Of a stretch of DNA of 64,000 nt, positions 1,396 through 50,900 are shown in pieces; position 1 is the first letter of the stretch, and every line of letters starts with the position of its first letter. The notes beneath the pieces are model-generated. The model saw nothing but the letters and a program-made list of their open reading frames with translations, was not told the origin of the DNA and ran no database searches. Origin of the DNA: Cetorhinus maximus (Eukaryota); the NCBI RefSeq assembly GCF_964194155.1, contig NC_135902.1, forward strand, positions 49,228,001-49,292,000, given 5' to 3'. The position numbers and the translations under genes were made by a program.

Positions 1396-1940
1396 CAGGT
1401 TTTAGTAAACACCTTGTCAAACACCAGGAGAGAAATGGAAAGCAATGAAGGTGAACAAGGCAAAATAAAAGATTGTGCTTTTGAAAGTCAAAAATCAGAA
1501 CAGAGAAATGCTTTGGAAGCTCACAGAAAAGTTTTAAGTTTTGAAAAGACGTAGGATTCAGAAAACCTGGAGATATAAACTAGCGATTTCAACTCATTTC
1601 ATCTTCGCAAGCCTCCCATTATCTTACATAAATGCAAAGTTAGCATTGTCTAGTGCAATTACTACTCACTGCCACAGTACTGTAACATCTAGAATTAGTA
1701 ACACTACCTGTGTGCTGGACGAGGTCCCACTGTTCAGGAGACAGCAAACAAGGAGGGGATGCAGGTGACTTAGAACAAACAAAACTTTAACTGAAAGAAA
1801 ATTCATTTAATTCTTATTTTATACTCATCAAAACGTTCTGCAACTCATCATGGAATATCTTGGTAGGTACAACAAAGAATGAAAAAAATGGAATAAAAAA
1901 GAACAGTTCAAGATACTAAGCAATAATGTTACTATTGTAC

Positions 1941-2460
1941 CTTGCAGTAGATTAGGACGTAGTATAGTGCTCTCCTCCAATAAGTCTTTTAGTGAAGCAA
2001 CAATTTCTTCCTTAGTCAAGTCCTTGTTGCTTAATGGCACTTGCAATGCTGCAGTCTCTATCAGCCTCACTAACCTGTTGTCTGAACTCTGACACCTCAA
2101 CTTATGAGGTGTCGTCACTCCAAATACCTGTTCTCTAGATAATACCACCGAGTCCCACCACTTAGTAGCCAAGTTCTTTTTGAGTTCCATTCCCAAATGT
2201 CCATAATTGTACCAACCATTGATAAGAGCGTCTTGGGTAATTATATCTCCAGTTATAAAATGCCTACTCTGGCAAAGATCAATGAGCGTTTCAGCCAATC
2301 CAGAAAGGTCCGAAGAAGATTTATTGTATTTTCTTGACATCAGGCAAGGGCCAAAGACCTGCCAATCTTGTTGAAACATTTTACTGGAGACCTTCCATTT
2401 CTTCAAGAATGACTTAACAGGAAATTTCATAATCATCAATCCCATGATGGCAAGTTTCAT
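1941..2460 (-). CDS. POLG2: DNA polymerase gamma accessory subunit, first coding exon (gene continues beyond the left edge of the window)
   Basis: Translation LIDLCQSRHF...YGHLGMELKKNLATKWWDSVVLSREQVFGV...LRPNLLQG resembles the POLG2 N-terminus; donor CAAG|GTACAA at 1941/1940; acceptor TACTACAG| at 2537/2536; neighbours DDX5 and CEP95 as in mammals. True start may be Met at 2445 (GCCATCATGG, better Kozak context). Confidence 0.9.
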
Positions 2461-3426: not shown

Positions 3427-3530
3427 CTCGCACATGCTATCCTCCCTATTGCTGTGCTGACCGTTAAACCGTGCCGTTTAAATGCAGCTCGCGCCACTTC
3501 GAGCCGGCCTCGCGACTTTAATGACATCAC
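3427..3530 (-). other. POLG2: Putative upstream (leader) exon of POLG2
   Basis: CpG-rich stretch ending in donor CGAG|GTAGAT at 3427/3426, directly downstream of ETS/NRF1-like motifs; 5' end approximate. Confidence 0.55.
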
Positions 3531-3626
3531 TTCCTGGAAACCACCGATCAACCAAGCGCGCATGCGTAGTTGTGCGAACTGCCCCCTCCTTTTCCGCTTG
3601 GTAAAGGCATTGTTTTGGCCATCTTG
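3528..3626 (-). promoter_or_regulatory. POLG2 proximal promoter with ETS/GABP-like, NRF1-like and YY1-like motifs
   Basis: CACTTCCTG at ~3528-3536, GCGCATGCGT at 3558-3567, GGCCATCTT at 3617-3625; NRF1 and GABP are established regulators of nuclear-encoded mitochondrial genes. Confidence 0.6.
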
Positions 3627-3647
3627 GTAAAGGAGGTTTTGTTGAAG

Positions 3648-5970
3648 ATAAAAACAAAAAACTGCGGATGCTGGAAATCCAAAACAAAAACACCTGGAAA
3701 AACTCAGCAGGTCTGGCAGCATCGGCGGAGAAGAGCAAAGTTGACGTTTAGAGTCCTCATGACACTTCAACAGAACTAAGTAGAAATTGGAAAGGGGTGA
3801 AATATAAGCTGGTTTAAGGGGGGTGGGGGGGGTTTGTTGGGACAAGTAAGCAGTGATAGGAGGAGATAATCAAAAGATGTCACAGACAAAATACCAAAGA
3901 GGTGTTCAAGGTGGTGATATTATCTAAAAGAATGTGTTAATTAAGATTGGAGAGCAGGACAAGCAAGGTAGCTCTAGTGGGGGTGGGGTGAAATAAACCA
4001 TGGGTGGAATACATTTAAAAATAATGGAAATAGGTGGGAAAAGAAAAATCTATATAAATTATTGGAAAAAACAAAAGGGAGGTAGAAAAAACAGAAAGGG
4101 GGTGGGGATGGAGGAGGGAGTTCAAGATCTAAAGTTGTTGAACTCAATATTCAGACCGGAAGGCTGTAAAGTGCCTAGTCAGAAGATGAGGTGCTGTTCC
4201 TCCAGTTTGCGTTGAGCTTCACTGGAACAATGCAGCAAGCCAAGGACAGACATGTGAGCAAGAGAGCAGGGTGGAGTGTTAAAATGGCAAGCGACAGGGA
4301 GGTCTGGGTCATGCTTGCGGACAGACCAAAGGTGTTCTGAAAAGCGGTCACCCAGTCTGCGTTTGGTCTCTCCAATGTAGAGGAAACCGCATTGGGAGCA
4401 ACGAATGCAGTAGACTAAGTTGGGGGAAATGCAAGTGAAATGCTGCTTCACTTGAAAGGAGTGTTTGGGCCCTTGGACGGTGAGGAGAGAGGAAGTGAAG
4501 GGGCAGGTGTTGCAAATTTTGCGTTTGCATAGGGAGGTGCCGTAGGTGGGGGTTGAGGAGTAGGGGGTGATGGAGGAGTGGACCAGGGTGTCACGGAGGG
4601 AACGATCCCTACGGAATGCCGCCGGGGGGGTGAAGGGAAGATGTGTTTGGTGGTGGCATCATGCTGGAGTTGGCGGAAATGGCGGAGGATGATCCTTTGA
4701 ATGCAGAGGCTGGTGGGGTGATAAGCGAGGACAAGGGGGACCCTATCATGTTTCTGGGAGGGAGGAGAAGGCGTGAGGGCGGATGCGCGGGAGATGGGCC
4801 GGACACGGTTGAGGGCCCTGTCAACTACCGTGGATGGAAAACCTCGGTTAAGGAAGAAGGAGGACATGTCAGAGGAACTGTTTTTGAAGGTAGCATCATC
4901 AGAACAGATGCGACGGAGGCAAAGGAACTGAGAGAATGGGATGGAGTCCTTACAGGAAGCGGGGTGTGAGGAGCTGTAATCGAAGTAGCTGTGGGAGTCG
5001 GTAGGCTTGTAATGGATATTGGGGGACAGTCTATCACCAGAAATTGAGACAGAGAGGTCAAGGAAGGGAAGGGAAGTGTCAGAGATGGATCATGTGAAAA
5101 TGATGGAGGGGTGGAGACTGGAAGCAAAATTAATAAATTTTTCCAGGTCCCAACGAGAGCATGAAGCAGCACCAAAGTAATCATCGATGTACCGGAGAAA
5201 GAGTTGTGGGAGGGGGCCAGAGTAGGACTGGAACAAGGAATGTTCCACATACCCCATAAAGAGACAGGCATAGCTGGGGCCCATGCGGGTACCCATAGCC
5301 ACACCTTTTATTTGGAGGAAGTGAGAGGAGTTAAAGGAGAAATTGTTCAGTGTGAGAACAAGTTCAGCCAGACGGAGGAGAGTAGTGGTGGATGGGGATT
5401 GTTCGGGCCTGTGTTCGAGGAAGAAGCCGAGAGCCCTCAGACTATCCCGGTGGGGGAGGGAGGTGTAGAGGGATTGGACGTCCATGGTGAAGAGGAGATG
5501 GTTGGGGCCAGGGAACTGGAAATTGTTGATGTGACGAAAGGTGTCAAGGAATCACGGATGTAGGTGGGAAGGGACTGGACAAGGGGAGAGAGAAGGGAGT
5601 CAAGATAACGAGAAATGAGTTCCGTGGGGCAGGAACAGGCTGACACGATCGGTCTGCCAGGACAGTCCTGTTTGTGGATTTTGGGTAGGAGGTAGAAGCG
5701 GGCCGTCCGAGGTCGGTCGACTATCAGGTTGGAAGCTGTGGAAGGAAGATCTCCAGAGGAGATGAGGTCAGTGACAGTCCTGGAAACAATGGCTTGATGT
5801 TCAGTGGTGGGGTCATGGTCCAGGGAGAGGTAGGAGGAAGTGTCTGCTTCAGGAGGAAGGAGTCAGGAGGAAGGTTCTGTTGAAGTGTCATACGGACTCG
5901 AAACGTTAACTGTGTCCCTCTCCGCAGATGCTGTCAGACATGCGGAGTTTTTCCAGGTGTTTTTGTTTTG
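3648..5970 (-). mobile_element. Penelope-like retroelement (RT + GIY-YIG endonuclease), 5'-truncated and frameshifted, with an inverted terminal segment at 5873-5970
   Basis: RT motifs DVQSLYT, QIKGVAMGTRMGPSYA, RYIDD; GIY-YIG NLVYCIRCSQCGFLYIGETKRRLGDRFSEH. Confidence 0.92.
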
Positions 5971-6917
5971 GTAAAGGAGGGGCCATCTTACTCGTCAGAC
6001 TCGCAGGCCCCACCCAGCAAATTAAACTCTCGTTAAACACACACCTTATTCAGTTTTAGTGTAGTAACTATTATTCTCATAGAAGGAGAAACTGGATTTT
6101 TGTGAGTAAATATAATTTTGATCCTTATCCCGACATTTTTTGTTAATGTACATAGTGGGCGCTAATTTGGCAAGGGTGTGGGAAGGAGTTAGGAAGGAGG
6201 TACTATCCAGGGTGACCAACTCTGGATGGGAAAGATAAGGGACACTTCGCCGTGGGGCAAGGGGTGCTAACAATGAAGTAAGGTTGGGGGGTGGGGAATG
6301 GTGTTGACAACATTCTGGGAACAGGGCTGGGGAGTTGGCGGTGGGTGGGTTAGATGAAGAGCAGCTCATTGGAGCAGGGGAGGTTGAGTGCTGATGACAC
6401 CGTAGGGGCCGTGCCGGGTGAGGGGGGGTGCAGATGGCACAGTAGGGGGTTGGGAGGGGCTAACGACACTATTGGAGTGGTAGGGTGCTGATGAGGCCAT
6501 GGGAGGCAAATGGGGGAGTTCCACTCACCTCCCCTCATGCCTGCCTGGACCCCTCCTCCCCTTCATGCCTGTCTGGACCCCTCCTCCTCCTCACATCTTC
6601 CTGGATCCAACAATGTAGTCACTGTTGTAATGTAGGAAATGCAGCAGCTAATTTGCACACAGCAAACTCCCACAAACGGCAATGTGTAGTGACCAGATAA
6701 CCTGTATTTCTAATGTTGATTCAGAGCAGGTTCGATGGGTTGAATGGCCTGCTCCTGTTTCTTATGTTATGTTCTTATGAACACCTAGCAAATGAAAGAA
6801 TAGGACGAGGAGCTGAATTTAATCAGCAGTGACTGGCAGCTTATAATTTATTTTGAACAAAAACAAAAATACCTGGAAAAACTCAGCAGGTCTGACAGCA
6901 TCTGCGGAGAGGGATAC

Positions 6918-6956
6918 AGTTGACGTTTCGAGTCCGTATGACCCTTCATCAGAACT
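6918..6956 (-). ncRNA. Minimal type I hammerhead ribozyme motif
   Basis: Reverse complement AGTT-CTGATGA-A-GGGTC(ATACG)GACTC-GAAAC-GTC-AACT. Confidence 0.75.
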
Positions 6957-6972
6957 AAAAAGTATATTTTTT

Positions 6973-7011
6973 AGTTCTGATGAAGGGTCATACAGACTCG
7001 AAACGTCAACT
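6973..7011 (+). ncRNA. Minimal type I hammerhead ribozyme motif
   Basis: AGTT-CTGATGA-A-GGGTC(ATACA)GACTC-GAAAC-GTC-AACT: full core, stem II, GUC cleavage triplet, stem I. Confidence 0.75.
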
Positions 7012-10250: not shown

Positions 10251-10251
10251 C

Positions 10252-11015
10252 AGAAGGCTGTAAAGTGCCCAGTCAAAATAGGGGGTAGTATTCCTTCAGC
10301 TTATGTAGAGTTCATTGAAACACCACAGGAGGCCAAATGCAGAAAGGCCAGAGTGGAAGCAAGGTAGTGAATTAAAATGACAGGTGACTAAAAGCTCATA
10401 GTCATACTTGTGGACTGAATGAAGGTGTTCAATCTGCATTTGGTCTCCCCAGCGTGGAGGAGATTGCATTGTGAACAGTGAATACAGTAGACTAAACTGA
10501 AAGTACAAGTAAGTCATTGTTTCACCAGAGTGGACTTTCTCAGCACACAACAAGAACAGAATTACCTGGAAAAACTCAGCAGGTCTGGCAGCATCGGCGG
10601 AGAAGATAAGAGTTGACGTTTCGAGTCCTCATGACCCTTCAACAGAACTGAGAAGGGTCATGAGGACTCGAAACGTCAACTCTTTTCTTCTCCGCCGATG
10701 CTGCCAGACCTACTGAGTTTTTCCAAGTAATTCTGTTTTTGTTTTGGATTTCCAGCATCCGTAGTTTTTTTTTTATCTATGGACTTCCTCAGGCCCTGGA
10801 CTGTGAGAAGGGAGGAGATTATAGGGCAGCTGTTGCATCTCCTGAACATTTATGGGAAGGTGCTGTGAGGAAGAGGTTTTGGGGGGTGATTGAGGAGTGG
10901 GCCGGTGTGTCACGGAGGGAACAGTCCCTTCAGAAGGCTGAAAGTGGAGCAGGGAAGATTTGTGTGGTGGTGGTATCACCCTGTAGGTGACGGAAATGGC
11001 GGAGGATGATTTGTA
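10252..11015 (-). mobile_element. Old Penelope GIY-YIG fragment, interrupted by a younger palindromic Penelope-terminus insertion (~10550-10775)
   Basis: Diverged match to 4160-4700; inner inverted repeat with approximate TSD TGGACTT(T/C)CTCAG at 10531-10543 and 10780-10792. Confidence 0.8.
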
Positions 11016-11019
11016 AAAG

Positions 11020-11830
11020 GCAGGTGATGCTTGCCTAATCTAACTGAATCTTTTCATGAAGTAACAGAGAAGGCTGATAAAGGGATGTGGACGTAGCATT
11101 GGATGTTGTCCACATGGATTTTAGAAAGCTTTTGGCAAACTATCTCATAAAAGACTGGTTAACAAAATTGAAGCTCATGGAATAGATCAATGTCAGCCTG
11201 GATGAAAAATTGGCTTACGTACAGAAACCAGTGAGTTTGTGCAAAAGGTTATTTTTGGAAATAAAAACAAAATGCTGGAAATACTCAGTAGTTCAGATAG
11301 CATCTGTGGAGACAGAAACCGAGTCATCGAGTCAACGTTACTGGTCCATGACCTTTTGTCAGAATTGGAGGATGGGAGACAGGGGTGTTCAGTGCTAGGG
11401 CTGTTAATACATATATATATATATATATATAGAATGGATGGACAAGTGGCAGATCATATTTAATACAGACAATTGTGAGGTGTTTCATTTTAGCAGAAAA
11501 CATTGGGAGAGGCAATATGGTCTCTAAGCAATGTTCAGGTACAGAGGGATCTGGGGTTCATGTGCATTATCTTTAAAGGTGACCAGGCTTATTCATAGAA
11601 TAATTAACAAAGTATATGAACTCTTGGGCCTGATAAATATCGAGTGCAAAGCAAGGAAGTTGTGCTGTACCTTTATAAAGCTTTGGTTAGGCTACAACTA
11701 GATGCGTGTGTCCAGTTGTGGTCACCACACTTTAGGAAGAATGTGAGGTCCTTGAGAGGGTGCAGAAGAGATTTACCAGAATGGTTCTAATGATGGGGGA
11801 TTTTAGCTTTATTAGGTTAGGCTAGGCTGA
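11020..11830 (+). mobile_element. CR1 LINE RT fragment, with a small Penelope terminus at ~11260-11370 and a (TA)n run
   Basis: Degenerate CR1 RT motifs readable at nucleotide level. Confidence 0.7.
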
Positions 11831-12449
11831 AGAAGCTGAAGGAACAGCATCTCCTATTTTGACTGGGCACTTTACAGTCTTCTGCAAGGATTAGTGGTAG
11901 GCCTAAAGATTGGGAAAATCCAGCGCTCTGGCTGAATTTGGCAGGCCTGGGGATGGAGGGGCAGGATCTGACAGCAGGCCTGAGCCAAGCGGAGGTTCCG
12001 GCAGCCTGAGTTAGGGGTATCCATCAACACAGCTGGGAGGGATCGATCTGGCAGCAGGCCTGAGCTGAGTATGGGGGAAGGGGTCTGGCTGCTGGCCCAA
12101 GTTGGACTGGGCGTCCGACAGCCCTACACTCAGTAGGATATCCAGTAAGCCTGGGGGTTGAGGGGGATGCTGATTGAGTGGGGGCATCAGCTTTGGGAAG
12201 AGCAGCTGCTGAGAGTTGGGGGATTGAGGTTGGAGAGAGGTGCTTCTGAGTATGTCTGTCGGGGGGAGGTAAGTTGGGCAGAGGTGTGTGTGTTGGGGAG
12301 CAGTGTGGAGCTTTGAAGAAGCAAATTGCAGTGTCAATAGGTTTGAAGAGGCAGACTATATGTGGAATGTTGTAAGGGCATAGTTTTTGTCTGGTCAACT
12401 CTTTTGAGCCTCATGGACACTGTTGATGTTGTGCAAGCTGTCATAATGA

Positions 12450-12702
12450 TGTTGGTTACAGAACATGTCTGTTAAAGAAGTCTTCGTAGTCTTCTGTATG
12501 TTAACAGCAAGTCTTTATTAACTACTTGTAACTATATACAAATATACAGTAAAGGGTACAAGCAAGGAGCTATCTCCATCTTCTCACGTCTCTGTTCAGC
12601 ACCACACTGACCCCAGGTCTGGGTCATGTGTGTTCATACATCACTGTGTGGGTGGTACAGTACTCCACATTAACTCCGTATATACCAGACTATTATACTA
12701 CA
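12450..12702 (-). mobile_element. LTR-like repeat (TG...CA)
   Basis: - strand begins TGTAGTATAA, contains AATAAA, ends TAACCAACA; diverged second copy at 13339-13538. Confidence 0.6.
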
Positions 12703-13338
12703 CCTGCCCCACAAGTCTTTATCCCATTGATATAGTTATTATATTAGTTTGCTTCTTACATTGTTATAAGTCTTATGCATTTACCCTTATTGTTACAGCT
12801 TTAATGCTATTTCAACATTATTGCTATTACTGTATTAGCACTATTAGAACATTCTCACTACCCCATCTATCCCCTTCAATTCCTTGAAGTTAGAGGTTCA
12901 GCTGGCCTGGAGTCCATATCACCCACAGCCTCACAAGAATGCGGAAAAACTAAGAAAAAGAAAATCTTCAACAGATTCAGAACTGAAAGAAGCTCCCAAC
13001 TGAAGCCACAGAAGCTGAGAAAATTTGCCAGAAAAAGCTCCAGACACAAGAGCCTGGAAGCTAAAGGCAGAAGTTTTACTGCAACAGAAGACTCCCATGA
13101 AGTCCAGCTTCAGTATGCAGAGGTCAAAGCCTGCAAGGGTGAGCTAAATCCTTTTAACCTCCAGACTGCAGCCAGTCCTGAGAAGCCCCTTTTACTAATT
13201 CAGTCAGAACTGCTGCTTGAATGAAGCCCATCGCTAATCCTGACCCTAGGCACAACATGTGGCCTCCAAGTTAAAGAGAAAAAAGAATAATTAACTTAGT
13301 CAACTCTCGGGAACCTTGCAACTGTCTGAATCCTTAAA

Positions 13339-13538
13339 AGCAAGTCTTTATTAATTACTTGTAACTATTTATACACACATACAATAAAGGGTACAGACAA
13401 GGACCTATCTCCATGTCTAAGTCTTAACATGTCTCTGGCCAACACCATACTGACCCTAGATCTGGGTCATGTGCCTTCTTACATCACTGAGTACTCAGTC
13501 CCACATTAACCCTGTATATACCAGACCCTTATACTACA
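13339..13538 (-). mobile_element. Second, truncated copy of the LTR-like repeat
   Basis: Direct repeat of ~12507-12702 ending at the same TACTACA boundary. Confidence 0.6.
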
Positions 13539-14239
13539 CATACTGTTCCCTCCAATCTCCCAGCCCCCATCTGCCTCAGGTCTCCAGTCAGGCTGTTTCC
13601 CTCAGAGTTAGTCACCCTGGTGTTTTATGACAGATTTGGATTAGGTAGACAAAGAAAAGCTGCTCCCATCCATTAGCTCGTGGTACAAGGACTGAGGGGG
13701 GACACAGGTTTATGGTTTTGGATACAAGGAGAGGGGGGGAACAACTTGTTTACGTGGCTGCGTTTTCTGCCAGCATCATGCTTGCGCAGTTGCACTATTT
13801 TACTCCCTGACAGCATTGCGACACTACAGTGAACTTAATCACAATCGTCAGGTAAACTCAAAACATTTAAGCAGATGCTTCGTCAAATAATCAGTTGAAA
13901 ATAAGCATTATGTACACTGCATATTGCTCCATATTTACTTTTTAAAATTAAAACAGACATTTAACCAACAAAAGACGATAGCATCTCTACTCTCGGCGGC
14001 CAGGGTGTTAATTTGATCTTGAATTTGCTTCTTGCTTCAGATTTGATCGCAGACTGAACTGCAATTTAAAAAAAAAAGAGACACATACTCAGTGTTGCTG
14101 CTTCCACCTTTGCCCTTTCAAAACAATCCGTGTTTAAGTGCTTATCAGCTCACTTTCAGCCGGAACCTGTGGCGAGGCTGGGGGGTGGTGGTGTGGTGTC
14201 CTTTAGCAAAATATTACCAAAACGACCCTTCCATTGGTG

Positions 14240-15327
14240 TAAAAACAAAAAACTACTGCGGATGCTGGAAATCCAAAACAAAAACAGAATTACCTGGAAA
14301 AACTCAGCAGGTCTGGCAGCATCGGCGGAGAAGAAAAGAGTTGACGTTTTGAGTCCTCATGATCTTTCAACAGAACTGAGTAAAGTTAGAAGAGGGGTGG
14401 TATAAGCTGGTTTAAGGTGGTGGTGGGAGTGGGGGGGGGGGGGGGGGTTAGAGAGAAGTTGGGGGGGGTGTTGTAGGGACAAGCAAGCAGTGATAGGAGC
14501 AGATAATCAAAAGATGTCACAGACAAAGGAACAAAGAGGTGTTAAAGGTGGTGATATTATCTAAGAGAATGTGCTAATGAAGAATGGATGGCAGGGCACT
14601 CAAGGTACAGCTCTAGTGGGGGTGGGGTGGAAAGACTGACAGGGCATTACAGGTATAGATTTAAAAATAATGGAAATAGGTGGGAAAAGAAAAATCTATA
14701 TAAATTATCGGAAAAAACAAAAGGGAGGGGGAAGAAACAGAAAGAGGGTGGGGATGGAGTTCAAGATCTAAAGTTGTTGAATTCAATATTCAGTCTGGAA
14801 GGCTGTAAAGTGCCTAGTCGGAAGATGAGGTGCTGTTCCTCCAGTTTGCGTTGGGCTTCACTGGAACAATGCAGCAAGCCAAGGACAGACATGTGGGCAA
14901 GAGAACAGGGTGGAGTTTTAAAATGGCAAGCGACAGGGAGGTTTGGGTCCTTCTTGCGGACAGACCGCAGGTGTTCTGCAAAGCGGTCGCCCAGCTTACG
15001 TTTGGTCTCTCCAATGTAGAGGAGACCGCATTGGGAGCAACGAATGCAGTAGACTAAATTGGGGGAAATGCAAGTGAAATGCTGCTTCACTTGAAAGGAG
15101 TGTTTGGGCCCTTGGACGGTGAGGAGAGAGGAAGTGAAGGGGCAGGTGTTGCAACTTCTGCGTGGGCATGGGGAGGTGCCATAGGTGGGGGTTGAGGAGT
15201 AGGGGGTGATGGAGGAGTGGACCAGGGTGTCCCGGAGGGAACGATCCCTACGGAATGCCGCCGTTGGGAGGGGGGGGGGTGGGGTGGTGAAGGGAAGATG
15301 TGTTTGGTGGTGGCATCATGCTGGAGT
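14240..15327 (-). mobile_element. Penelope-like element 3' part (GIY-YIG domain + terminus)
   Basis: ORF 14761-15090 NLVYCIRCSQCGLLYIGETKRKLGDRFAEH; near-identical to 3648-4670. Confidence 0.9.
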
Positions 15328-15547
15328 GTCTGAGGTACGGGGCATCCAGCACCTATAACTGGATGAACATCAATATTGGGAACAATGTACAAGACTACTG
15401 GGGATAGGGATGCCCGCCTTTTGAATACATTTGAGCCCAGCATGATCGGTTTTCTGTGTAGACATCTATCAGCGACCATCTCCCGTTCACAGGAGACTTT
15501 AGTTTACTGCGTAAAGACAATCCCCTCATTGAGGGAAGCGTGCAGCA

Positions 15548-15678
15548 ATTGGAAGTACTAGTCTGTCCAATAGAAATGCAGCCTCCTCACACTACCCAAT
15601 CAGGAGCTGCCTCCCTCTATCACTAGCAGGCATTTGTCCAGTAACAGCGGAGGCTTTAATCCAGAACTAGCCAATCAG
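15548..15678 (+). promoter_or_regulatory. TERF2IP promoter with multiple CCAAT (NF-Y) boxes
   Basis: ATTGG 15548-15552, CCAAT at 15567, 15596 and 15671, just upstream of the CpG-island exon 1. Confidence 0.6.
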
Positions 15679-15723
15679 AGCCTCAGTTTGCGCCCGCCAC
15701 TGGCCCGCTTCAAGTCGAACCCA

Positions 15724-16417
15724 ATGGCCGCCGACGCCGGACCTGCGGCCTCGGCTTCTAACCAGACCTTGTCCCACTCCCGGACTCTCTTCCTGGAAGA
15801 GGACGGCGTCCCGCTCCGCTTCTTCGTGCGCCCGGGGCCCACGAAGACCTCGCTGTTCCCGCTGATCGTCCACGGCGGCGGGGTGGTGTGCCGGCACCAG
15901 GAGCAGGGCGCCATCCTGCTGACGGAGCTGGGGGAGACGGGGCCGCTGCCGGCCGGCTACGTCCGGGCCCGCTACGTGCTGGACTGCGTGGAGAAGAACA
16001 AGCAGCTGCCGCTGGACGAGTACCGCCTGCGGACCTCCCGAGCCACCGGGGCGGCCGGCTCGCTGCCGTCCGAGGCCCCGGAGGTCGGGCCGGCCGACGG
16101 CGCTGGCAGGATGTTCTTCAGCAAGCTGGAGGACGTGGCCATCTTGATGTACGTGCGCTCTAATGCCGGCCCAAATAGCGGGCGCTCGGTACGCGGGACG
16201 AACCTGTGGAAGGAGATGGAGCGGATCCAGCTGACCGCCCACTCCTGGCAGTCCATGAGGAACCGCTACTTGCGGCACCTTTGCGGCCAGGAACATCTCT
16301 ACCAGCTGGACAGCCGCTCCGTCATCCCCACCGCCGTCTTTCACCAGGTGAAGCGACCGGAGGAGAGCAGCGCTAAGCGAGCTCCCAAACCAGAGGCAGC
16401 GGCTCAAGCGGCAAAAG
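15724..16417 (+). CDS. TERF2IP: TERF2IP exon 1 (BRCT + Myb), CpG island
   Basis: ATG in CCAATGG; donor AAAG|GTGAGG. Confidence 0.93.
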
Positions 16418-19400
16418 GTGAGGCCCTTCCTGCGCCAGGGAGCGACGACCGTTTGATTGCCGGCACCGCGGCGGGTACTGCGCGTGCGCTAGGCCGTCAG
16501 CTACTGTGCGCATGTGGGAGACCGTCAGCAGCTGGCCCCATGATTTTAAGGGAAGTGTAGGAAGATCTCTTAAAGGTTTATTTGTGAGGACTTGCATGCA
16601 GAATTGTTACTGTACAAGTATACCGAATAGTCCTTGTATTTCAAAGTAATTCATTGTGTGTAGAGTACTGTATAAATGCAAGATTTTTTTTCCTCCTGTA
16701 TTCATTATAAAATCGCAGTGGTCTCAAAACAGCTTTAAAATTTATTTGTGCAGAAAATCGAAGTGATTTTATAAAAAAAGTAGATGATTTTTTTTTGTCA
16801 GACCTGGCTCATTCAATTGCCGCTTTCTTTTAAATTACCAGAAGTGTTGGTGGAGTAACAATGGTTGAACATATCTGATAGGTAACAAGCCTGACAGTCT
16901 CCAGCATGTCGACTTGGAATCTAATGAGGTAGCTGCCTCGGTTGAACAAGTGTCTGATGTAAATTCAGAGGAGGAATGCTTCAACGTGTTTCCTGTCGCT
17001 ATCCGTGAATTTGAGGTAGGCGATAATTCTGGTTTCCATAATGAGGGTTTTTGTTTTGTTTGAGCCTTGTGCCTATTTTTACAGTTCTTAACAGTGTACT
17101 GGTGTTGCCATGTTTATTCTCTCCTTCCCAAGGCAACACTAACTTATTGGTGGAAAGGGTGCAAACAGCTGGAATCTCCTTGGTTATGATGGTGATTCAC
17201 CTCAACAGACTAGACACCCAATATTCCTAGTTTATATAAAAACACAACCCCACCTCCTCCAGTATAGCCTCCCTCCACCTCAGCTGACATGGGTTGCCTC
17301 CTGAAATGAACTGTGCGGTGGCAACATCAGTTGATGCAGAGGAGTGTAGAAAGATGAAGAGGACGATTTATCAAGTAATGGCTCTACATTGGAGTGTAAT
17401 GTTTAATACCTATGCCCCTAGCCAAGCTGTTCCAGTACAGCCACAACACTGGCATCTACTTGACAATGTTGAAAATCGCCCAGGTAGGTCCTGTCCATAA
17501 AACAGAACAAATTTTAATGTGATCAACTCCTGGCCCATTGGTTTACTTTTAATCATCAGGAAAGTGATGGAAGGTGTCATCCACAGCACTACTGAAATGG
17601 GACTGTATGAGTTTGTGGTGGGGTGGGTGTGTGGTAAGGTGTCATTTGAAATGCTGCACAAGCATTTTCATTTCACCAAATATTATTAACACTCCTATCA
17701 TTATTACATTCAATATCTACTTAATCTCTTTTTGCAGATGTCAGATCAGGGATCAGCAAGTGTTGGACAGAGCATGTTCTGATTTTACCATAAGGGATTT
17801 TTATGTCCACTGCAGCAGTCAGATGAGACTTGAGCATAACTATACCCTCATATCTCCTGATACTCTGGAGTGTGACCAATGTGAGCCTTACTGATTGTTA
17901 TCCAAGTTGTAATTGTTATGAATTATAATTTGCAAATTCTTTTACATTAAATAGTGGTATTTACACTTGACCCAATTAAAGACGCTCAGTGATTGCGATG
18001 TGGCCAGTGCTGGTGAGCCTGTGTTTTTACTGGTTCTGGTTGCCCTGAGATGATGTTGCTGGGCTGTCTTGAGTCACTAAACTTTGCTGGTGCTCACATT
18101 ATAATGTTGGGTGGGAAATTGCAGAATTCTGTCCCATTGACTACGAAGGGATGGCAGCATGTGTTTATATAAGGGTGTTGTGTATCTTGGGGCATTTGAA
18201 GGTGATGGTGTTCCCATAACACACTCCTTCGATGGAGTTTGAGTGGTTGGCAGATGTTGTAGTAAGCTTGAGAACTTGCAGTGTAAGTAAGTACTGCAGC
18301 CACAGTGCAATGATGATGGAGAGTTGATCATGCACACTACTGAGTAGTGTGAAGTTGTAATGGTACCCTTCTAGGTGACTAGAGTATTCCATCTCACACC
18401 TGACTTGGGCTTTGTAGATGGCGGGGCACTGAGGAGTCAGATTTCTCCCACTCTGACCTTTCTGTCCTTGGCCTGCGACAGTGTCCTAATGAAGTTTGAG
18501 GAACAGTGCCACCTCTTTCAACTGGGCACTTTAAAGACACAATCATGAAAGCAAAATGCTGCAGATGCTGGAAATCTTAAATAAAAATAGAAAATGCTGG
18601 AATGTTTCAAGTTCATATGACTTCTTCAGTTCTGAAGAAGTCAAATGGACTCAATGTTAACTATTTTTCTCTCTGCACAGATGCTGCCACACCTGCTGTG
18701 TTTTTCCAGAATTTTCTGTTACTTCTGGGTATAATATTGAGTTCAATATTTTGGATCATAACCTCTGCCCATTTTTGTTTCTTTTGTTAGTTTCGTCTTT
18801 TCTCGTTTCTTAATTTCTTTTCTTTTGCTTTCAGACAGCAACTATCCTGCCATTCACATCTCTAGATAGATCTTCTATTTCTTTACACGCCCCATTACCA
18901 CTCCCTTTGGCCTTGCCAAAGTAACTATTTTGATATTTTAATCACACATGCCCTCTGACCTATTATGTACCTTCCCCTTTGTTCTTCCCATCTTTCCCTT
19001 CCCCCACCAACCCTTTACTTGCTGAAAACCTATTACATTTGAAGTCATTGACCAGAAATGTTAGCTCTCCACGGATGCTGCCAGACCTGCGGAGCATTTC
19101 CTGCAGTTTGTTTTTATTAAACTGGGTTGGTAGTTTACTTGATTATAATACTCAGCATAGCCAGGTGATAAGAGAAGGGGAAAATTGATTGGGAGATATA
19201 AATTTGTCATCACCTGATTTGCCTATTCAGGAGCATTCTGAAATGAAACAGACCAGAGTTGATGGCTAGAGCACCTTCTACAAATGAGCTGTTTGCACCA
19301 TATCTAGTTGCTTTGTGATAAGTTGTTTACTCCAAATGACTGACTTGAAATTATTTTGTTCCTCATTCTAGGTTGAAGATGATACTCCTGAGCTGCTGGT

Positions 19401-19869
19401 AGAAGTCAGTGATGAAATGGGGACAGAAAAGGTCCCACGAGAGCAACAGATGGAGACTGACAAAGTGAATCCTGATGAGCATCGTACTAAGCATAAAGTA
19501 ACTTTGGCAGAGTTTGTCATGGATAACGAGCAATCAGAATTAGACTCTCAGACACCAGTGGATGAGTTATCCTCTATGCCTACAGCCTCCCAGGATGAGG
19601 TGGAATGTGCAATTAGAGCTATCAATACATTGATGCAAACTCATAATCTGGATCTCTGTGCAGCCACACAGTTGTTATTGAAAAACAATGGGGAGCTGAC
19701 AGCAGCGTTACATTTTATGGAGACTGGTCACCGGCCAGATGGTTATCCTATCTGGACACACCAAGATGACCTCGACCTGGAGGATGTTGACATCAAAGTA
19801 CAGGGGAGGTTAATCCAGAAATTTGGCTCGGAGAATTTGGCTAAACGCATCGCCTTTCGTAAAAGTTAA
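15724..19869 (+). CDS. TERF2IP: Telomeric repeat-binding factor 2-interacting protein 1 (RAP1, shelterin); 3 exons: 15724-16417, 16882-17015, 19372-19869; about 441 aa
   Basis: BRCT domain (HSRTLFLEEDGVPLRFFVRPGP...YVLDCVEKNKQLPLDEYRL), Myb domain (GRMFFSKLEDVAILMYVR...LWKEME...HSWQSMRNRYLRHL), RCT domain (LLKNNGEL...GHRPDGYPIWTHQDDLDL...KFGSENLAKRIAFRKS); exon lengths 694+134+498=1326 nt, frame continuous with GT-AG introns. Confidence 0.95.
16882..17015 (+). CDS. TERF2IP: TERF2IP exon 2
   Basis: Only in-phase AG found after the in-frame stop at 16866 (GATAG|GT); encodes ...EEECFNVFPVAIREFE; donor GAG|GTAGGC. Confidence 0.75.
18040..19120. mobile_element. Old LINE fragment plus degraded Penelope termini in TERF2IP intron 2
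   Basis: MEYS-type LINE remnant on - strand; GCAGATGCTGGAAAT terminus and inverted copy with CTGAAGA core at ~18548-18720. Confidence 0.6.
19372..19869 (+). CDS. TERF2IP: TERF2IP exon 3 (RCT domain)
   Basis: Acceptor TCATTCTAG|GTTGAAGAT; ends RIAFRKS-TAA. Confidence 0.93.
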   Translation, partial: VEDDTPELLVEVSDEMGTEKVPREQQMETDKVNPDEHRTKHKVTLAEFVMDNEQSELDSQTPVDELSSMPTASQDEVECAIRAINTLMQTHNLDLCAATQLLLKNNGELTAALHFMETGHRPDGYPIWTHQDDLDLEDVDIKVQGRLIQKFGSENLAKRIAFRKS

Positions 19870-22800
19870 CAGCAAATGGACATTTGGACTGTAACTTTAA
19901 GGAGGCAGGAGCTTGAACACTGTCCTTTTAGTCTCCAAGACCGAAGTTCACATCTGAATCTCACTGGATGGGATGCAAGTTTCTGCCAGTTGTACTCAAA
20001 TGAGTTGAGTAAAATCCCATTCATGAAACCGAAGTACAAAACTACCACTAGTTTGGCACAAATCTGGACCAGATATGGATTATCTCCTGTTTCCATATCC
20101 CATAAGAGCTGATCTAAAGAAGTTGAAGTGGTGATCTGAGTCTTGGGTTTTTTTTTAAATATAGGAAAAGGAATTTTGAGTGGTCATTCAACCTGTGCTC
20201 TGTCCAACTAAGTTGAGTTTGGAAGATATCAGCCAAGTATTAATGAATGTAACTTTTATTTTAAAAAAACTTTAATTTGGCCTGTGGAGTAGGGAGAGAA
20301 AGACCATGTAGCAGTAGTTTCAGGAAGGGATTGTGCCCCCCCCACAAGACCAAGGATAGGAATGACCAAAGGAACGAATGGTGATGTGGCTTTGCACAGA
20401 AAACCACCTTATTAAAATTTAAGAAGCACTGGTGATCTGTTTAACACTATCCAAATCTTCCTTTTGAGAAATTGAAATCTGCATTCCTGCAAATTCTACC
20501 ATTCAAACAACTGTTACACAGGTGCAGTTTCTGGGCCTACTGCCTGCTAGGATCTTAAACAAGGAAAATTTTAAACTTGTAGGACAAAGCCCCCTTATCT
20601 GTCCGTAACTTAGGGTCTGTTTGGCTGAAAACATTGTGACCTTAATATTAAACCCTACAACAGGCAGAAGAGGTTCAGGGATAGAGAGATTTTAGATACT
20701 GAATACCTAACATATAATTAGCCTTCCACAGTGCACTTGGAAGTCTGACTTCCTTGAGGAAACCTTTGGTTTCCCTTAGCCACCTGATTTCAGGCTCCAC
20801 CTCTTGCAATTGTGGACCTCTCTGACCTTCCAATTACTCAAACGGGTCTGCTGCTATGGCCGGCTCCTGGTGTACTTTCACACGCTCCAGCCTGTTCATT
20901 TGGCTGGTTCGTGGGCAGGAATTGGAGTGTAATAAAATCTTGTGACTTGCCTTTTTGGGTTCTTTGGCTGTTCTACCTCTCTTGAACTCTCCCCATAAAT
21001 ATCGGTCTTTGGGTTTTGTTTTGAAGCTAAATATGAAAAATTAGGTCTTATTTCAACTTGGTACAGTTCCAATAGTTGTTAAACTGGTGAGGGTATTCCC
21101 TGTACAGTTACTTCCTCCTCAAGCCCAGAGGATGCCACCAACATAGAGGCAACAGTCCATACCCTAGCCTGATGAGCTATGGTTCTTGTATTGTCCTGCA
21201 ATATGTTTAATTTATGCACTCCAATAAAATACACTAAGCTAATAACTATTGCAAATATCTATCAGTATGCAAAAATACATGAGGGATAGGTGGAAAAACA
21301 ACTGGGCTCTTGAGTGATAATGTCAGGAGATATGAGCACAATAGTACTCTGTCCCCAAAGCAGTAACAGTTATAAAACCTAGTGAAATATTTTACCTAAT
21401 GCTAGTACACTCATGCTTGCAAAAGTTGACCAATTTTGAGGTGATTATAGCTAGACCTACTCAGTTGTTTTCTCAGTCTTTGATCTTGTGTGGTGGTTAA
21501 AGGAAGACCATGTCTTCCAGGGCATCACCTTTCCCCTCAGGTGATTGCTAATAGAATAGGGTGCCTTTCGGCAAGACACCAAGCTCAGGGCAATGACACT
21601 TTAGTCCACCAGACATAGCAACTGGAATTAAGAACTGAAAATGCACTGCTTTTAGACCATAGTCCAGAGCTAGTTCCCAAGTATATTTACCTAGACTTGC
21701 CAATACATGGCATGTCATCAAAGCTTGCAATGACAAGTTGGAAATGTGGTTAATTGAGGATGAATAAACTTTGAGAATATCAACAGATTGGTGAAATGTT
21801 GGTGTCACCACACTCCCTTCACTTTATCTTCTCAACCTCACTGCAGCACATGACTCCCCCAAACCCACAGGTGTTGAAGCTGGGAAGAGTGGTGCTAGTG
21901 CTGCTCCCTGTGCATATGTACTGTGCTGGTCTAGGGTGTGCATGCACAGAAGCACAGGCACTAACCATGATTGGGCAGTGATGAGGAGAGAAATCTGGGA
22001 CGGTTAGTCACCCTAGTATCATCAAACGAAAACCTAGGTGCACATAATTGGAAGAGTCAGGTAGCACTAAAGTAGGAAATAGTAAGATATTAGTGGGGTC
22101 AGAATAAGAGGGAAAGTAATAAGGTCTAAATTTATGATTACTATGCATTATGCAAATGTGATAGATAAGATTGAGCTGCAGGCACGGATTGTCATGTGGA
22201 AATATATAGTGGCCATAACATCTAGCTCAGTAGTATTGGGTACAAAAAATTCCTGGCTACAAGGTGTTCAGGAAATAGAGGGAAATGAAAGGAGGGGTAG
22301 CAGTATTGAGGTGAATGTTAGTGCTGAACAGAGGATGGCTAAAGGGTTCAAGGACAGAATCAACTGATTAGGGTTAAGAAACAGTAGACGTTCCATTATA
22401 TTGCTGGGTTTAATTACAAGCCATCAGTGAGTGGAAATAACGTACTCTTGAAAATAAACCAATTAAAAAAAATGAAGAGGTAAATTAACTAACAGGGATA
22501 ACACCTTACAGCGGCACAGTAACTTAAGTTTCCTTTGTAGATTTGTTCTTTAAAAACACAAATCAAAACATTGGTTCTGGAGTGTAATGATGTACCGAAG
22601 GCCTAGTGTGCCAGCAGACACCACATGCTCCCTCTGCAGGGGCACCTGACCACAAGCATAGCTGCAGAAGAGGGGCAGTCAGGCTGGAGGAACCCATCAA
22701 CTGCCCACTGCCTGAACCTATTAATGGCCAACTTGACCAGGCCCAGGCTTACATCCAGAGATTGAACAGAAAACTTGTATTACAGGTTAGTCAAATATCA

Positions 22801-25306: not shown

Positions 25307-37812
<12,506 letters not shown>

Positions 37813-47900: not shown

Positions 47901-50900
47901 AACGGAAGATGATCTTGGAGGCCTCTGAGGCAAAGTGCAAGGCTTGCTGGCTCTTCACCTCTTGGAGTTCCTCCTTGACATCGACCCCCATCGACTGCAG
48001 CCGGAGCAGATTCTGCATGTTTTTCTGGAGTCAAGACATTTCCCTCTGTTCCTTTCTAGCTTTCTGGGTGCCTTTGAGGATGAAAAACCTCTTGATGTTT
48101 CCCTTGATCGCTTCCCACCAGTGTGTCAGGGACTCAAAGAGGGGTTTCACGGTTCTCCAACCTTTGTAATCCCTCTTGAGCTCCTCAATGTTCTCTGGGG
48201 TCAGCAGTTGCACATTTAGCTTCCATGCCCCCCTGCCCACCCTCAGGTCCTTCTCTAAGTGGCAGTCCGCCAGTAGGAGGCAGTGGTCAGAGAAAAACAC
48301 CGGCTTGACGTCAGTGGATCTGACTGTGAATGCACGGGACACAAACAGGAAGTCTATCCTGGAACGAATGGACCCGTCTGGCCGCGACCAGGTGTATCTA
48401 CGCTGCGCTCCGTCTGCAGGGTTGCTGAAGACGTCGTGCAGCTTGGCATCCTTAACTGTTTCCATCAGGGATCTGGACGTAGTGTCCAATCTGCTGTCGG
48501 CCCTGCTGGATCGTCCAGCCGCATCGATGATGCAGTTGAAGTCACCACCCAGAATGACTGGCCTGGAGGTCGCCAGCAGCAGTGGGAGCTGCTGAAAAAC
48601 CTCCAGCCGCTCGGCCCCTTGTGACGGGCCATACATGTTAATTAACCGGAGTGGAGCGTTCTTGTACATTACGTCTGCTACGAGGAGGCGCCCGCCCACC
48701 ACCTCCTTAACCTCGGAGACGGTGAAGTTGCCTCCCCGCAGCAGAATACCCAGGCCGGAGGAACGAGAGTCGTTTCCGCCCGACCAGATCGATGGCCCAT
48801 GGGACCACCATCGTGACCATTGCCTGTAGGAGCTGAAATGCGGTATCGCACACTCCTGCAGAAACAACAGGTCAGCTTTGACCTTGGCAAGGTAGTCCAA
48901 GGTCGCAACACATCGCGTAGTCCAAAGACTTACTGGACTCTGGACTCACATGAAACAATAATTCTTCTTTGTTTCCTGTGGTTTTGCCCTGTACCTCTTT
49001 CTTTTCCTATCCCTTTTATAATTGTGTGATTGTACTGGGGTTATGTAGCGACGCCCTCGTCTCACGTTTTGAGTGTGTGTAAGTTAAATTAAACCCCTCA
49101 TTTTATCCTAGCTCAAGTTTGCTGTGGGGCTATTAATAGAGGGTTAGGGAAATACACCACAACTTATAAATGGGGAAATCAAAAATCGCAAAACGCATTT
49201 CTGTTTACTGATGGGTGGTGAGAAAAGAAATTAAGGCTACTATAAATTAAACCCCCTCCCGTCTGTAACAATAGCATGAAGCTTTTGAATATGTCCCAGA
49301 CCATTTTGACCAGAAAAGTAAAACTGTCGCTGTTTGTAAATTCAGATGCATATAAATACACCATGGGTCACAAAACATTGTTTACATTTTTTTTTAAATG
49401 AACATTAAACCTTGGATATTTGGGCATGAGCAATTGGCATCAAGCTATAAACTATGTCCAAAGTGTTTGTATCCTTAAAGAAGCAGTGGAGGAATGTAAA
49501 GAGGTATCAGTCATTTTAAACTTTTTCAAAGATGGTCTTATTTCCTGGTCTGATTCTTGAAAGTGTAGTTACGCTCTCAAAAATACACTTGGCCCAGTGA
49601 ACTTCCATATTCTCATGGAAAATTATACATTGCATCTTATTAGTTTAATTTGACCTGTATCACTGTCTACAGGTTTGCCTACCACAAAAGATGTTATAGA
49701 CTAATTTTGCTCTGTTTTCTGGCCCTTATTGTAGATTGGATTACCGTTGCCAATAATCTCCTTCGCAAGTGCCACATTAATCAGAGGGTGACAAAGTTCT
49801 GTGACTGTGATGCAAGTGTATTTATTGCCCTTTATGAAGCTATTCTTGGTGAAAAGGTCCCAGGTAAGTGAGTCATAACTGATAATTTGTAATAAAGAAA
49901 TCCTGCTCAGTAATGTAATAGTTTCAAGGCTTGGCATGTTGTGCTGCTATATTTAATGAGAAAAGTTTATGTGTAACCTTTTAATCTATTACAGATTACA
50001 TAGCTATCCCCAAAAGTCAGGAAGACGATGCCCATAATGTGCAGGCAGTGATAGATTCATTGGCTTTGGACTACTTACAAATCAGTTTGTCGCATATAAC
50101 TGGTCAGTAATAAAATAAGGCAACTTTATGTCTCAAGATGGAAAATGTTTTGAAACAAAAGTTCACGCAGCTTCAATTCCAATGTGGAGATTGGATGATT
50201 TTTGTTGTGTTCAAATGTAAAGGCTGTGAGTGTTCAGAATTTGTTTTGAGTTCTAGGGCTGATTTTTTTTTTTGTTTTGTTTTTTCATTGCACTAGTATC
50301 AACACCGAAACAATTGTGCAAGGTTCTGCATGCACAACTGCTTGAGTAATGTTTGTGAGAGCTAACACTTAGAATCTTGTGCATAACAAAATAATTTTAA
50401 GGTGACACTGAAAAGTCATTTGCCTAAATTAATTTGTGTAAATTCATGTCTCTTTTTCCTCCTCCACTCTTGTCCAGGAGAGAATATTATTCAGAATGAC
50501 AAAGAAAGTATACGGAATCTATTAGAAATCTTTGATGGTTTGCTAGAATATCTCACAGAACAGATAAGTGAGGCTTCCTCACAGCATGGTAAGTAAGTTT
50601 ATAAACTGAGTTGAACTACAAGCTTCCTAGTTTGACTAATTTTCAAAGTTTTGCTTTATCCACTAATTAGTTAATCATCTACTGAACTTTAAAATGAAAC
50701 ACAGATCTGAACCTTAGCCTGCTGATGTATTTTTTGTAACTGCCCTCCCTGACAACGCTATGGGTATGCCTAACCATGCATTGCAGCAGTTCAAGAAGGC
50801 AACTCACCAGTGAGCACCAGCTCACCGTTCTCAGCAGAGGTGCAGAAGGTCTTTGCTTTCCCTCTACTGTACAGGCAAGGATTGAGCTATCTGCAAATGT

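What the first reader, a model, noticed from the sequence alone, without database searches (positions are those of the whole stretch)
15548..19869. Intact, intron-containing TERF2IP (RAP1) lies between POLG2 and DDX5 rather than head-to-head with KARS1
Seen: a complete 3-exon RAP1 with BRCT, Myb and RCT domains, CpG island and CCAAT-box promoter; no lysyl-tRNA synthetase exons were recognised upstream. Known: in human POLG2 and DDX5 are direct neighbours, and TERF2IP shares a bidirectional promoter with KARS1 on another chromosome. Inference: either this is the ancestral jawed-vertebrate position, or a DNA-level relocation or a second RAP1 paralogue exists in this lineage. The introns rule out a simple retrocopy.
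Basis: partly seen in the sequence, partly recalled or inferred. Interest (0 to 1): 0.7.

Follow-up and report, generated by a model that had tools for sequence, protein, structure and literature searches.

The report
Telomere gene RAP1 relocated in sharks
This shark's only detected copy of the telomere gene RAP1 sits intact, introns included, between POLG2 and DDX5; it likely moved there in an ancestor of mackerel and ground sharks from an older site near MST1 and RNF123, not from KARS1, whose familiar pairing with RAP1 in birds and mammals is likely a separate, later move.

Summary
Observation confirmed. A three-exon, 441-aa TERF2IP/RAP1 (BRCT, Myb, RCT) with a CCAAT/CpG promoter lies head-to-head with POLG2 and tail-to-tail with DDX5. 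It is the only copy found in this genome; KARS1 is on another contig.

The position is derived. RAP1 shares the POLG2 chromosome in 5 of 5 lamniform and carcharhiniform sharks and in 0 of 10 rays and sevengill shark.

A published gene table puts RAP1 near RNF123 in gar and beside an MST1-family gene in bamboo shark, near HAP1/JUP in Xenopus, and beside KARS only in chicken. This genome keeps that older block without any RAP1 remnant.

Best reading: a DNA-level move out of the GMPPB–MST1 interval after carpet sharks split off. It is one of at least three moves of this single-copy gene in jawed vertebrates, and a rare genomic marker for Lamniformes+Carcharhiniformes. The mechanism of the move is inferred; exact adjacency is shown in one assembly only.

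The parts
1933..2460 (-). POLG2 first coding exon (left neighbour; head-to-head with RAP1)
   Evidence: tblastn of P0016, 98.9% over residues 1-176; all 14 named homologues of 16 hits are POLG2 or an unnamed-function S. torazame model
3430..3570 (-). Likely POLG2 promoter and non-coding first exon, about 12 kb from the RAP1 start
   Evidence: ETS-like and NRF1-like motifs at 3529 and 3558 (motif names recalled); start site not mapped
3642..5977 (.). Penelope-like retroelement pieces abutting the POLG2 promoter
   Evidence: repeat intervals; RVT_1 hit at 5093-5551; 86% match to the 14229-15327 element
11760..12470 (.). Mostly unique block that directly precedes the RAP1 promoter in two related species
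   Evidence: single contigs of organisms B (X5) and C (X11, X14) join 11760-12470 to 15326-17439
12471..15325 (.). 2.85-kb stretch absent from organisms B and C, holding a Penelope-like piece (14229-15327, GIY-YIG)
15548..15675 (+). CCAAT-box array (ATTGG 15548; CCAAT 15567, 15596, 15671): likely NF-Y promoter
15724..16417 (+). RAP1 exon 1 (BRCT and Myb), inside a CpG island; ends in phase 1
16882..17015 (+). RAP1 exon 2 (acidic linker); pyrimidine-poor acceptor; ends in phase 0
   Evidence: matches NCBI model P0001
19372..19869 (+). RAP1 exon 3, coding part (RCT domain) to the stop codon
   Evidence: match to the human RCT chain 3k6g_A, E 7e-25
21223..21228 (+). Candidate RAP1 polyadenylation signal AATAAA (one of several candidates; untested)
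25310..37240 (-). DDX5 coding exons (right neighbour; tail-to-tail with RAP1); first exon not mapped
49985..50593 (+). CEP95 exons (DUF5745), showing that the POLG2-DDX5-CEP95 block is otherwise kept

Best explanation
This is the shark's intact, only detected RAP1 gene, and it likely reached the POLG2-DDX5 gap as a piece of genomic DNA (promoter, three exons, two introns) that left an older site, likely between GMPPB and MST1, in a common ancestor of mackerel and ground sharks. Most likely a segment of a few kilobases was copied to the new chromosome and the source copy was later deleted; a one-step cut-and-paste would look the same today. The protein is predicted to work as ordinary shelterin RAP1, docking on TRF2 through its RCT domain. 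Shown: gene structure, single match in the genome, neighbours in this assembly, chromosome-level pattern across species, empty older block. Inferred: the exact ancestral slot, the timing, and the copy-then-lose route. The gene is small (4.1 kb from start to stop) and carries its own CpG/CCAAT promoter, which would let it work wherever it lands (inference). The KARS1 pairing of chicken and human and the HAP1/JUP site of Xenopus are likely further moves.
For: RAP1 and POLG2 share a contig in 5 of 5 lamniform and carcharhiniform species (Cetorhinus, Carcharodon, Mustelus, Scyliorhinus torazame, S. canicula) and in 0 of 10 other species with both values (Heptranchias and 9 batoids). RAP1 and KARS1 share one in 0 of 15 species. 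The method checks out on this genome: C25 and C6 lengths equal those given for its RAP1/POLG2 and KARS1 proteins. (2) PMC10972751 supplement 6 rows. Gar TERF2IP LG5:41.877 Mb, 125 kb from rnf123 and 190 kb from ip6k1; gar kars LG23, polg2 LG10. Bamboo shark TERF2IP chr18:62.651 Mb, 37 kb from an MST1-family gene; its KARS chr17, POLG2 chr24. Chicken TERF2IP 2.4 kb from KARS. Xenopus TERF2IP on XTR10 near hap1, jup and leprel4, with kars on XTR4. BAP1 and MST1 stay on the matching chromosomes in all four species. (3) This genome keeps MST1-GMPPB-RNF123(AMIGO3)-IP6K on C6:73.16-73.98 Mb with no RAP1 trace in 920 kb: best HMM E 2, best tblastn E 0.06, no blastn hit for promoter or exons. None in 320 kb around KARS1 either. 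(4) Intron 1 sits at the same codon in a skate read-through protein and, by eye, in a mammal-like one; a gar isoform lacks the segment that ends at the intron 2 site. (5) The protein groups with Carcharodon (100) and carcharhiniforms (95) (quick tree). (6) Two other species share the local flanks at about 96% identity.
Against: Exact adjacency to POLG2 and DDX5 is shown in this assembly only; for the other 4 sharks it is same-chromosome evidence. No laid contig bridges RAP1 to POLG2, and the RAP1-DDX5 gap has no read-level test. Heterodontus and carpet-shark RAP1 proteins were not recovered (searched only 406 aa and longer), so the dating rests on one bamboo-shark row, which cannot exclude an unlisted second copy. 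That the batoid, sevengill and chimaera chromosome is the MST1/RNF123 one was not tested. Heptranchias KARS1 was not recovered. Callorhinchus, gar and Pleurodeles contig lengths may come from different assembly versions. Gar mst1 is 7.9 Mb from gar TERF2IP, and no GMPPB row was seen for gar or bamboo shark, so the slot is pieced together from two species. Xenopus XTR10 also carries chicken-18-type genes (luc7l3) and its polg2 is unplaced. No junction signature was found or could be looked for properly. In the quick tree squalomorphs group with batoids (85), not with the other sharks.
Confidence: 0.8

Rival explanations
1. The move is real but older or staggered: RAP1 was duplicated to POLG2-DDX5 in the galeomorph stem, and carpet sharks kept the old copy (or both) while mackerel and ground sharks kept the new one.
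For: Copy-then-lose needs a two-copy stage. No horn-shark or carpet-shark RAP1 protein was seen. The bamboo-shark table lists annotated family members only.
Against: The table gives exactly one bamboo-shark member among the 5 rows of the family, on chr18, away from POLG2 on chr24. No named species showed RAP1 on two contigs of one assembly.
Confidence: 0.1
2. A retroelement carried the gene: an unspliced transcript or a Penelope-type capture moved RAP1 with its introns.
For: A Penelope-like piece ends about 220 bp upstream of the first CCAAT box and others lie next to POLG2. Intron-retaining Penelope copies are known (recalled, from no call).
Against: The adjacent piece is missing from two related species, so it is younger than the move. 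Such pieces cover 2-7% of the three regions examined. The upstream promoter would not be part of a normal RAP1 transcript.
Confidence: 0.05
3. POLG2-DDX5 (or KARS1) is the ancestral jawed-vertebrate site and the other lineages moved away.
For: Xenopus TERF2IP is on XTR10, which also carries chicken-18-type genes. Chicken has it beside KARS.
Against: Gar and bamboo shark, on opposite sides of the bony/cartilaginous split, both have it in the RNF123/MST1 block. 10 of 10 outgroup chondrichthyans have it off the POLG2 chromosome and 15 of 15 off the KARS1 chromosome. The Xenopus neighbours are hap1, jup and leprel4.
Confidence: 0.03
4. The placement is an assembly error.
For: 73% of 3600-15325 is repeat and no laid contig spans it.
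Against: Four other species put RAP1 and POLG2 on one contig. The window has no N. The RAP1-DDX5 gap is only 7% repeat. Relatives share the flanking pieces.
Confidence: 0.02

Closest known systems
Human and chicken TERF2IP/RAP1 (shelterin subunit; PDB 8rd4_D, 7oz0, 1fex, 3k6g)
   Same: BRCT-Myb-RCT order; full-length match to human RAP1 at E 1e-77; three exons (human structure recalled; intron 1 site supported).
   Different: Neighbours are POLG2 and DDX5, not KARS1. It has its own promoter about 12 kb from POLG2's, not a short shared spacer.
RAP1-KARS bidirectional gene pair (Tan, Wei and Price 2003, PMID 14659874; seen only as a cited title and one passage in PMC5663575)
   Same: Head-to-head orientation to a housekeeping gene; CpG-rich promoter.
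   Different: Different partner and distance. The pair is absent from gar, Xenopus, hagfish and the 15 cartilaginous fishes compared, so it looks amniote-derived rather than vertebrate-wide.
DNA-mediated single-gene transposition (relocation with introns, copy then loss); concept recalled, from no call
   Same: Introns and promoter kept, both flanking blocks left in order, source site empty.
   Different: At least four sites are occupied by this one single-copy gene among jawed vertebrates, so at least three moves; no carrier element is identified.
Processed retrocopy
   Same: New chromosomal site for an old gene.
   Different: Introns are present, intron 1 at the inherited position, and no parent copy was found.

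Membership tests
TERF2IP/RAP1 (vertebrate shelterin subunit) | N-terminal BRCT domain | tested here: met
   PF16589 E 6e-10; 7oz0 match E 6e-24
TERF2IP/RAP1 (vertebrate shelterin subunit) | Rap1-type Myb domain | tested here: met
   PF08914 E 9e-18; 1fex match
TERF2IP/RAP1 (vertebrate shelterin subunit) | C-terminal RCT domain | tested here: met
   PF11626 E 9e-9; 3k6g_A match over residues 348-440
TERF2IP/RAP1 (vertebrate shelterin subunit) | Orthology: nested among chondrichthyan RAP1 proteins, single copy | tested here: met
   trees (quick method); 1 match among 9 and among 12 scored candidates
TERF2IP/RAP1 (vertebrate shelterin subunit) | Binds TRF2 and localises to telomeres | not tested
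   inferred from RCT conservation only
RAP1-KARS1 bidirectional pair | Head-to-head with KARS1 across a short spacer | tested here: not met
   KARS1 on C6, RAP1 on C25; a Penelope-like repeat starts about 125-175 bp upstream of the KARS1 start codon
DNA-mediated gene relocation | Introns at inherited positions | tested here: met
   skate read-through diverges at the same Gly codon as intron 1; support for intron 2 is weaker (one gar isoform)
DNA-mediated gene relocation | Outgroups carry the gene at a different, shared site | tested here: met
   gar and bamboo shark in the RNF123/MST1 block
DNA-mediated gene relocation | Source block intact but empty of the gene | tested here: met
   920 kb of C6 with one 200-base gap, no remnant
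DNA-mediated gene relocation | Defined insertion junctions against an outgroup empty site | not testable with these tools
   no outgroup shark DNA for the POLG2-DDX5 interval can be fetched
Processed retrocopy | Loss of introns | tested here: not met
   two GT-AG introns
Penelope-mediated capture | Element ends as old as the move flanking the gene | tested here: not met
   the upstream piece is absent from organisms B and C; no such piece downstream before DDX5

The most novel reading that the evidence does not exclude
RAP1 is a serially mobile single-copy gene that keeps settling head-to-head with a housekeeping promoter: GMPPB in the jawed-vertebrate ancestor, KARS1 in amniotes, POLG2 in mackerel and ground sharks, and a fourth site in frogs. 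The RAP1-KARS1 bidirectional promoter would then be a late co-option, and the outward-facing CCAAT array still upstream of shark GMPPB the abandoned half of the ancestral shared promoter.
Probability: 0.2. Interest if true: 0.65.

Novelty: new member of a known kind. Interest (0 to 1): 0.45.

Why it matters
It gives a presence/absence genomic character for Lamniformes+Carcharhiniformes. Several mitochondrial and nuclear studies grouped Lamniformes with Orectolobiformes instead (passage in PMC7995966); a recent phylogenomic preprint supports Lamniformes+Carcharhiniformes and puts shark inter-ordinal splits in a rapid Early-Middle Jurassic burst (passages). So the marker agrees with the current view and is independent of sequence models, but it does not overturn anything. 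It also shows that the RAP1-KARS1 promoter pair is not vertebrate-wide, which matters to anyone using synteny to call RAP1 orthologues or assuming co-regulation with KARS1 is ancient. A single-copy, intron-containing gene at four or more sites among jawed vertebrates is a usable case for studying how genes move in slow-changing genomes. The protein itself is ordinary and already annotated.

Tried and rejected
Source at KARS1: my first reading; rejected.

RAP1 remnant searches: none in 120 kb or 320 kb around KARS1, or in 200 kb and 920 kb around MST1. In some searches DNA hits fell in intronic or intergenic repeats.

Promoter homology RAP1 vs GMPPB: best of 12 promoter/strand tests, 6 of 300 shuffles reached the score, but the aligned piece is not collinear with the CCAAT arrays. 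Not counted as support.

RNA support: no RNA holder listed among full holders. Splicing rests on the sequence and the NCBI model. Run X1 may be the assembly's own sample and was not counted as independent.

Pfam RKP_N found nothing anywhere; RNF123 was located with short recalled motifs instead. MST1 versus HGF rests on a recalled C-terminal motif and on position. No Pfam hit for the DDX5 last exon or for an 862-aa frame 100 kb upstream of KARS1.

Papers: no description of this position in searches for terf2ip+synteny+kars (1 unrelated), terf2ip+polg2+ddx5 (5 unrelated), shelterin+shark+synteny, rap1+kars+bidirectional promoter, terf2ip+zebrafish+kars, fish mapping (none of 25 listed holds terf2ip), terf2ip+gmppb+rnf123 and gene transposition. 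PMC8653790 main text has 0 hits for synteny, KARS or shark; its supplements were not read. Supplements of PMC7269912 and PMC8302630 (file 4 not searched) had no hit. PMC10115646 gave skate Kars and Adat1 on chromosome 17 but no TERF2IP row (file 2 cut, file 1 unreadable). PMC10972751 file 6 is cut, and ddx5, cep95, smurf2 and tex2 were not in the stored part; a position-prefix search failed. These unseen parts may bear on the ancestral site.

Earlier scan notes: nothing on this locus; 5 unrelated RAP1 notes.

Of 10 bony-vertebrate RAP1 proteins looked up, only gar and Pleurodeles had a KARS1 comparator; both differ. Species with only one of the values were left out of the counts: Heterodontus, two Chiloscyllium, Hemiscyllium, Stegostoma, Rhincodon; Pristiophorus had no contig length.
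Full report
The gene. The window holds an intact RAP1 (TERF2IP) on the + strand. Exons 15724-16417, 16882-17015 and 19372-19869 splice through GT-AG introns to 441 residues with no internal stop. The model equals NCBI protein P0001, labelled TERF2IP of Cetorhinus maximus, a lamniform shark. Pfam finds BRCT, Rap1 Myb and Rap1 C-terminal domains, and human RAP1 structures match all three. Exon 1 lies in a CpG island behind 4 CCAAT boxes, where shuffles give 0.33.

The neighbours. POLG2 lies to the left on the - strand, first coding exon at 1933-2460. DDX5 lies to the right on the - strand from 25310, followed by CEP95 exons. RAP1 is therefore head-to-head with POLG2 at about 12 kb and tail-to-tail with DDX5 at 5.4 kb between coding ends. 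That POLG2 and DDX5 are direct neighbours in human is recalled.

One copy. Searches of the genome with exon 1 and exon 3 each returned only this locus (1 of 12 and 1 of 9 scored candidates). KARS1 is on contig C6 at 129.6 Mb with ADAT1 downstream. Upstream of its first exon, where birds and mammals have RAP1, a Penelope-like repeat begins, and 320 kb around it hold no RAP1 trace. A quick tree places the protein with Carcharodon and then with carcharhiniforms.

Across cartilaginous fishes. The protein tools report the length of the contig that encodes each protein, which serves as a chromosome fingerprint. It checks out here: C25 and C6 have the lengths listed for this species' RAP1/POLG2 and KARS1. 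RAP1 and POLG2 share a contig in 5 of 5 lamniform and carcharhiniform species and in 0 of 10 others with both values, Heptranchias and 9 batoids. I expected the outgroups to carry RAP1 with KARS1. They do not: 0 of 15 species with both values share a contig. Heptranchias KARS1 was not recovered, and the Callorhinchus pair may come from two assembly versions.

The older site. The gene table behind the hagfish genome paper (PMC10972751, supplement 6; I saw matching rows and one 10,000-character part) lists TERF2IP for 5 species. Gar has it on LG5, 125 kb from rnf123 and 190 kb from ip6k1. Bamboo shark has it on chr18, 37 kb from the next-numbered gene, a member of the MST1/HGF/PLG family that I read as MST1 because BAP1 and MST1 share the matching chromosomes in gar, chicken and frog. 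Bamboo-shark POLG2 is on chr24 and KARS on chr17. Chicken has it 2.4 kb from KARS. Xenopus has it on XTR10 near hap1, jup and leprel4. Hagfish has it on chr7, apart from KARS1 (chr4) and POLG2 (chr14). Newt RAP1 is also off the KARS1 contig by length.

The empty slot. In this genome the old block survives on C6: MST1 (73.16-73.25 Mb and beyond), a 111-kb satellite of a 16-base unit, GMPPB (73.44), RNF123 with a nested AMIGO3-like gene, and IP6K (73.97) (MST1, RNF123 and AMIGO3 names rest partly on recalled motifs and position). Gar gives the RNF123 side and bamboo shark the MST1 side, so the GMPPB-MST1 interval is the likely ancestral slot. No RAP1 remnant was found in 920 kb by HMM, tblastn or blastn.

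How it likely moved. Intron 1 sits at the same codon as in a skate read-through protein; a gar isoform is consistent with intron 2. Both flanking blocks kept their order. This fits transfer of a small genomic segment, most likely copy then loss of the source. The Penelope-like piece beside the promoter is not the carrier: single contigs from organisms B and C join 11760-12470 straight to 15326-17439, so the piece is younger than the move. Because bamboo shark keeps the old site, the event falls after carpet sharks branched and before mackerel and ground sharks split; a preprint dates these splits to the Early-Middle Jurassic (passages).

Limits. Adjacency is shown in one assembly; four other sharks support it at chromosome level. 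No laid contig bridges RAP1 to POLG2, and the RAP1-DDX5 gap has no read-level test. No horn-shark or carpet-shark RAP1 protein was recovered (one search was limited to 406 aa and longer). The batoid and chimaera chromosome was not shown to be the MST1/RNF123 one. I could not measure how rare three moves are.

A bolder reading. The GMPPB promoter carries 4 CCAAT boxes facing away from GMPPB, toward the empty slot. If RAP1 once sat head-to-head with GMPPB, it has been paired with housekeeping promoters at three sites. Sequence homology between the two promoters was not shown, and orientation in outgroups is unknown.

Novelty. The protein is annotated and ordinary. Eight paper searches found no account of its position or moves; the library lacks most subscription papers. 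The shelterin evolution paper PMC8653790 has no main-text hit for synteny, KARS or shark. The RAP1-KARS paper was seen only as a citation. The finding is a new instance of a known process, useful as a marker for Lamniformes+Carcharhiniformes, a grouping some earlier studies contradicted (PMC7995966 passages), and as a correction to the idea that RAP1-KARS1 pairing is vertebrate-wide.

Noticed in passing
window 3649 and 15327; G000:C6:129632104 and 129561763-129561895: Penelope-like pieces lie within a few hundred bases upstream of the POLG2, RAP1, KARS1 and ADAT1 promoters, but none was seen at GMPPB, RNF123 or DDX5/CEP95; 5-15% of background positions lie within 300 bp of such a piece. Possible insertion preference for promoter edges; noticed after the fact, start sites unmapped.
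   Followed up: partly
G000:C6:73438539-73438638 (L075): Four CCAAT boxes upstream of GMPPB point away from it, toward the inferred old RAP1 slot; no collinear homology to the RAP1 promoter.
   Followed up: partly
G000:C6:73273394-73384468: A 111-kb satellite of a 16-base unit fills much of the MST1-GMPPB interval; MST1 introns also hold 21- and 37-base tandem arrays.
   Followed up: partly
G000:C6: One 158-Mb contig carries both the MST1/RNF123 block (73 Mb) and KARS1/ADAT1 (129.6 Mb), which are on separate chromosomes in bamboo shark, gar and chicken: a likely fusion. In Rhinoraja, POLG2 and KARS1 share a contig.
   Followed up: no
window 16857-16951: The RAP1 exon 2 acceptor is pyrimidine-poor; two more in-frame AGs lie at 16933 and 16951, and a Narcine isoform lacks the matching stretch.
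   Followed up: partly
window 45474-48945 (-): Long LINE with endonuclease and reverse transcriptase frames, broken into several pieces, between DDX5 and the CEP95 exons.
   Followed up: no
window 51425-51619 (+): DDE_Tnp_4 transposase fragment, far from RAP1.
   Followed up: no
G000:C6:59539520-59587323; G000:C14:29.99-30.36 Mb: Two APEH_N matches in opposite orientation and two tandem multi-kringle clusters, plasminogen-like by recall: possible local duplications.
   Followed up: no
G000:C6:129734403-129736988 (L039): 862-aa glutamine-rich frame about 100 kb upstream of KARS1, no Pfam hit; perhaps an NFAT5 exon (recalled).
   Followed up: no
proteins P0078, P0093, P0098, P0103: Some amphibian-clade RAP1 proteins reach 934-1428 aa, P0078 with repeated Myb-like units; batoid RAP1 carries a repeat expansion in the last exon. 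Hagfish TERF2IP is listed with 11 introns.
   Followed up: no
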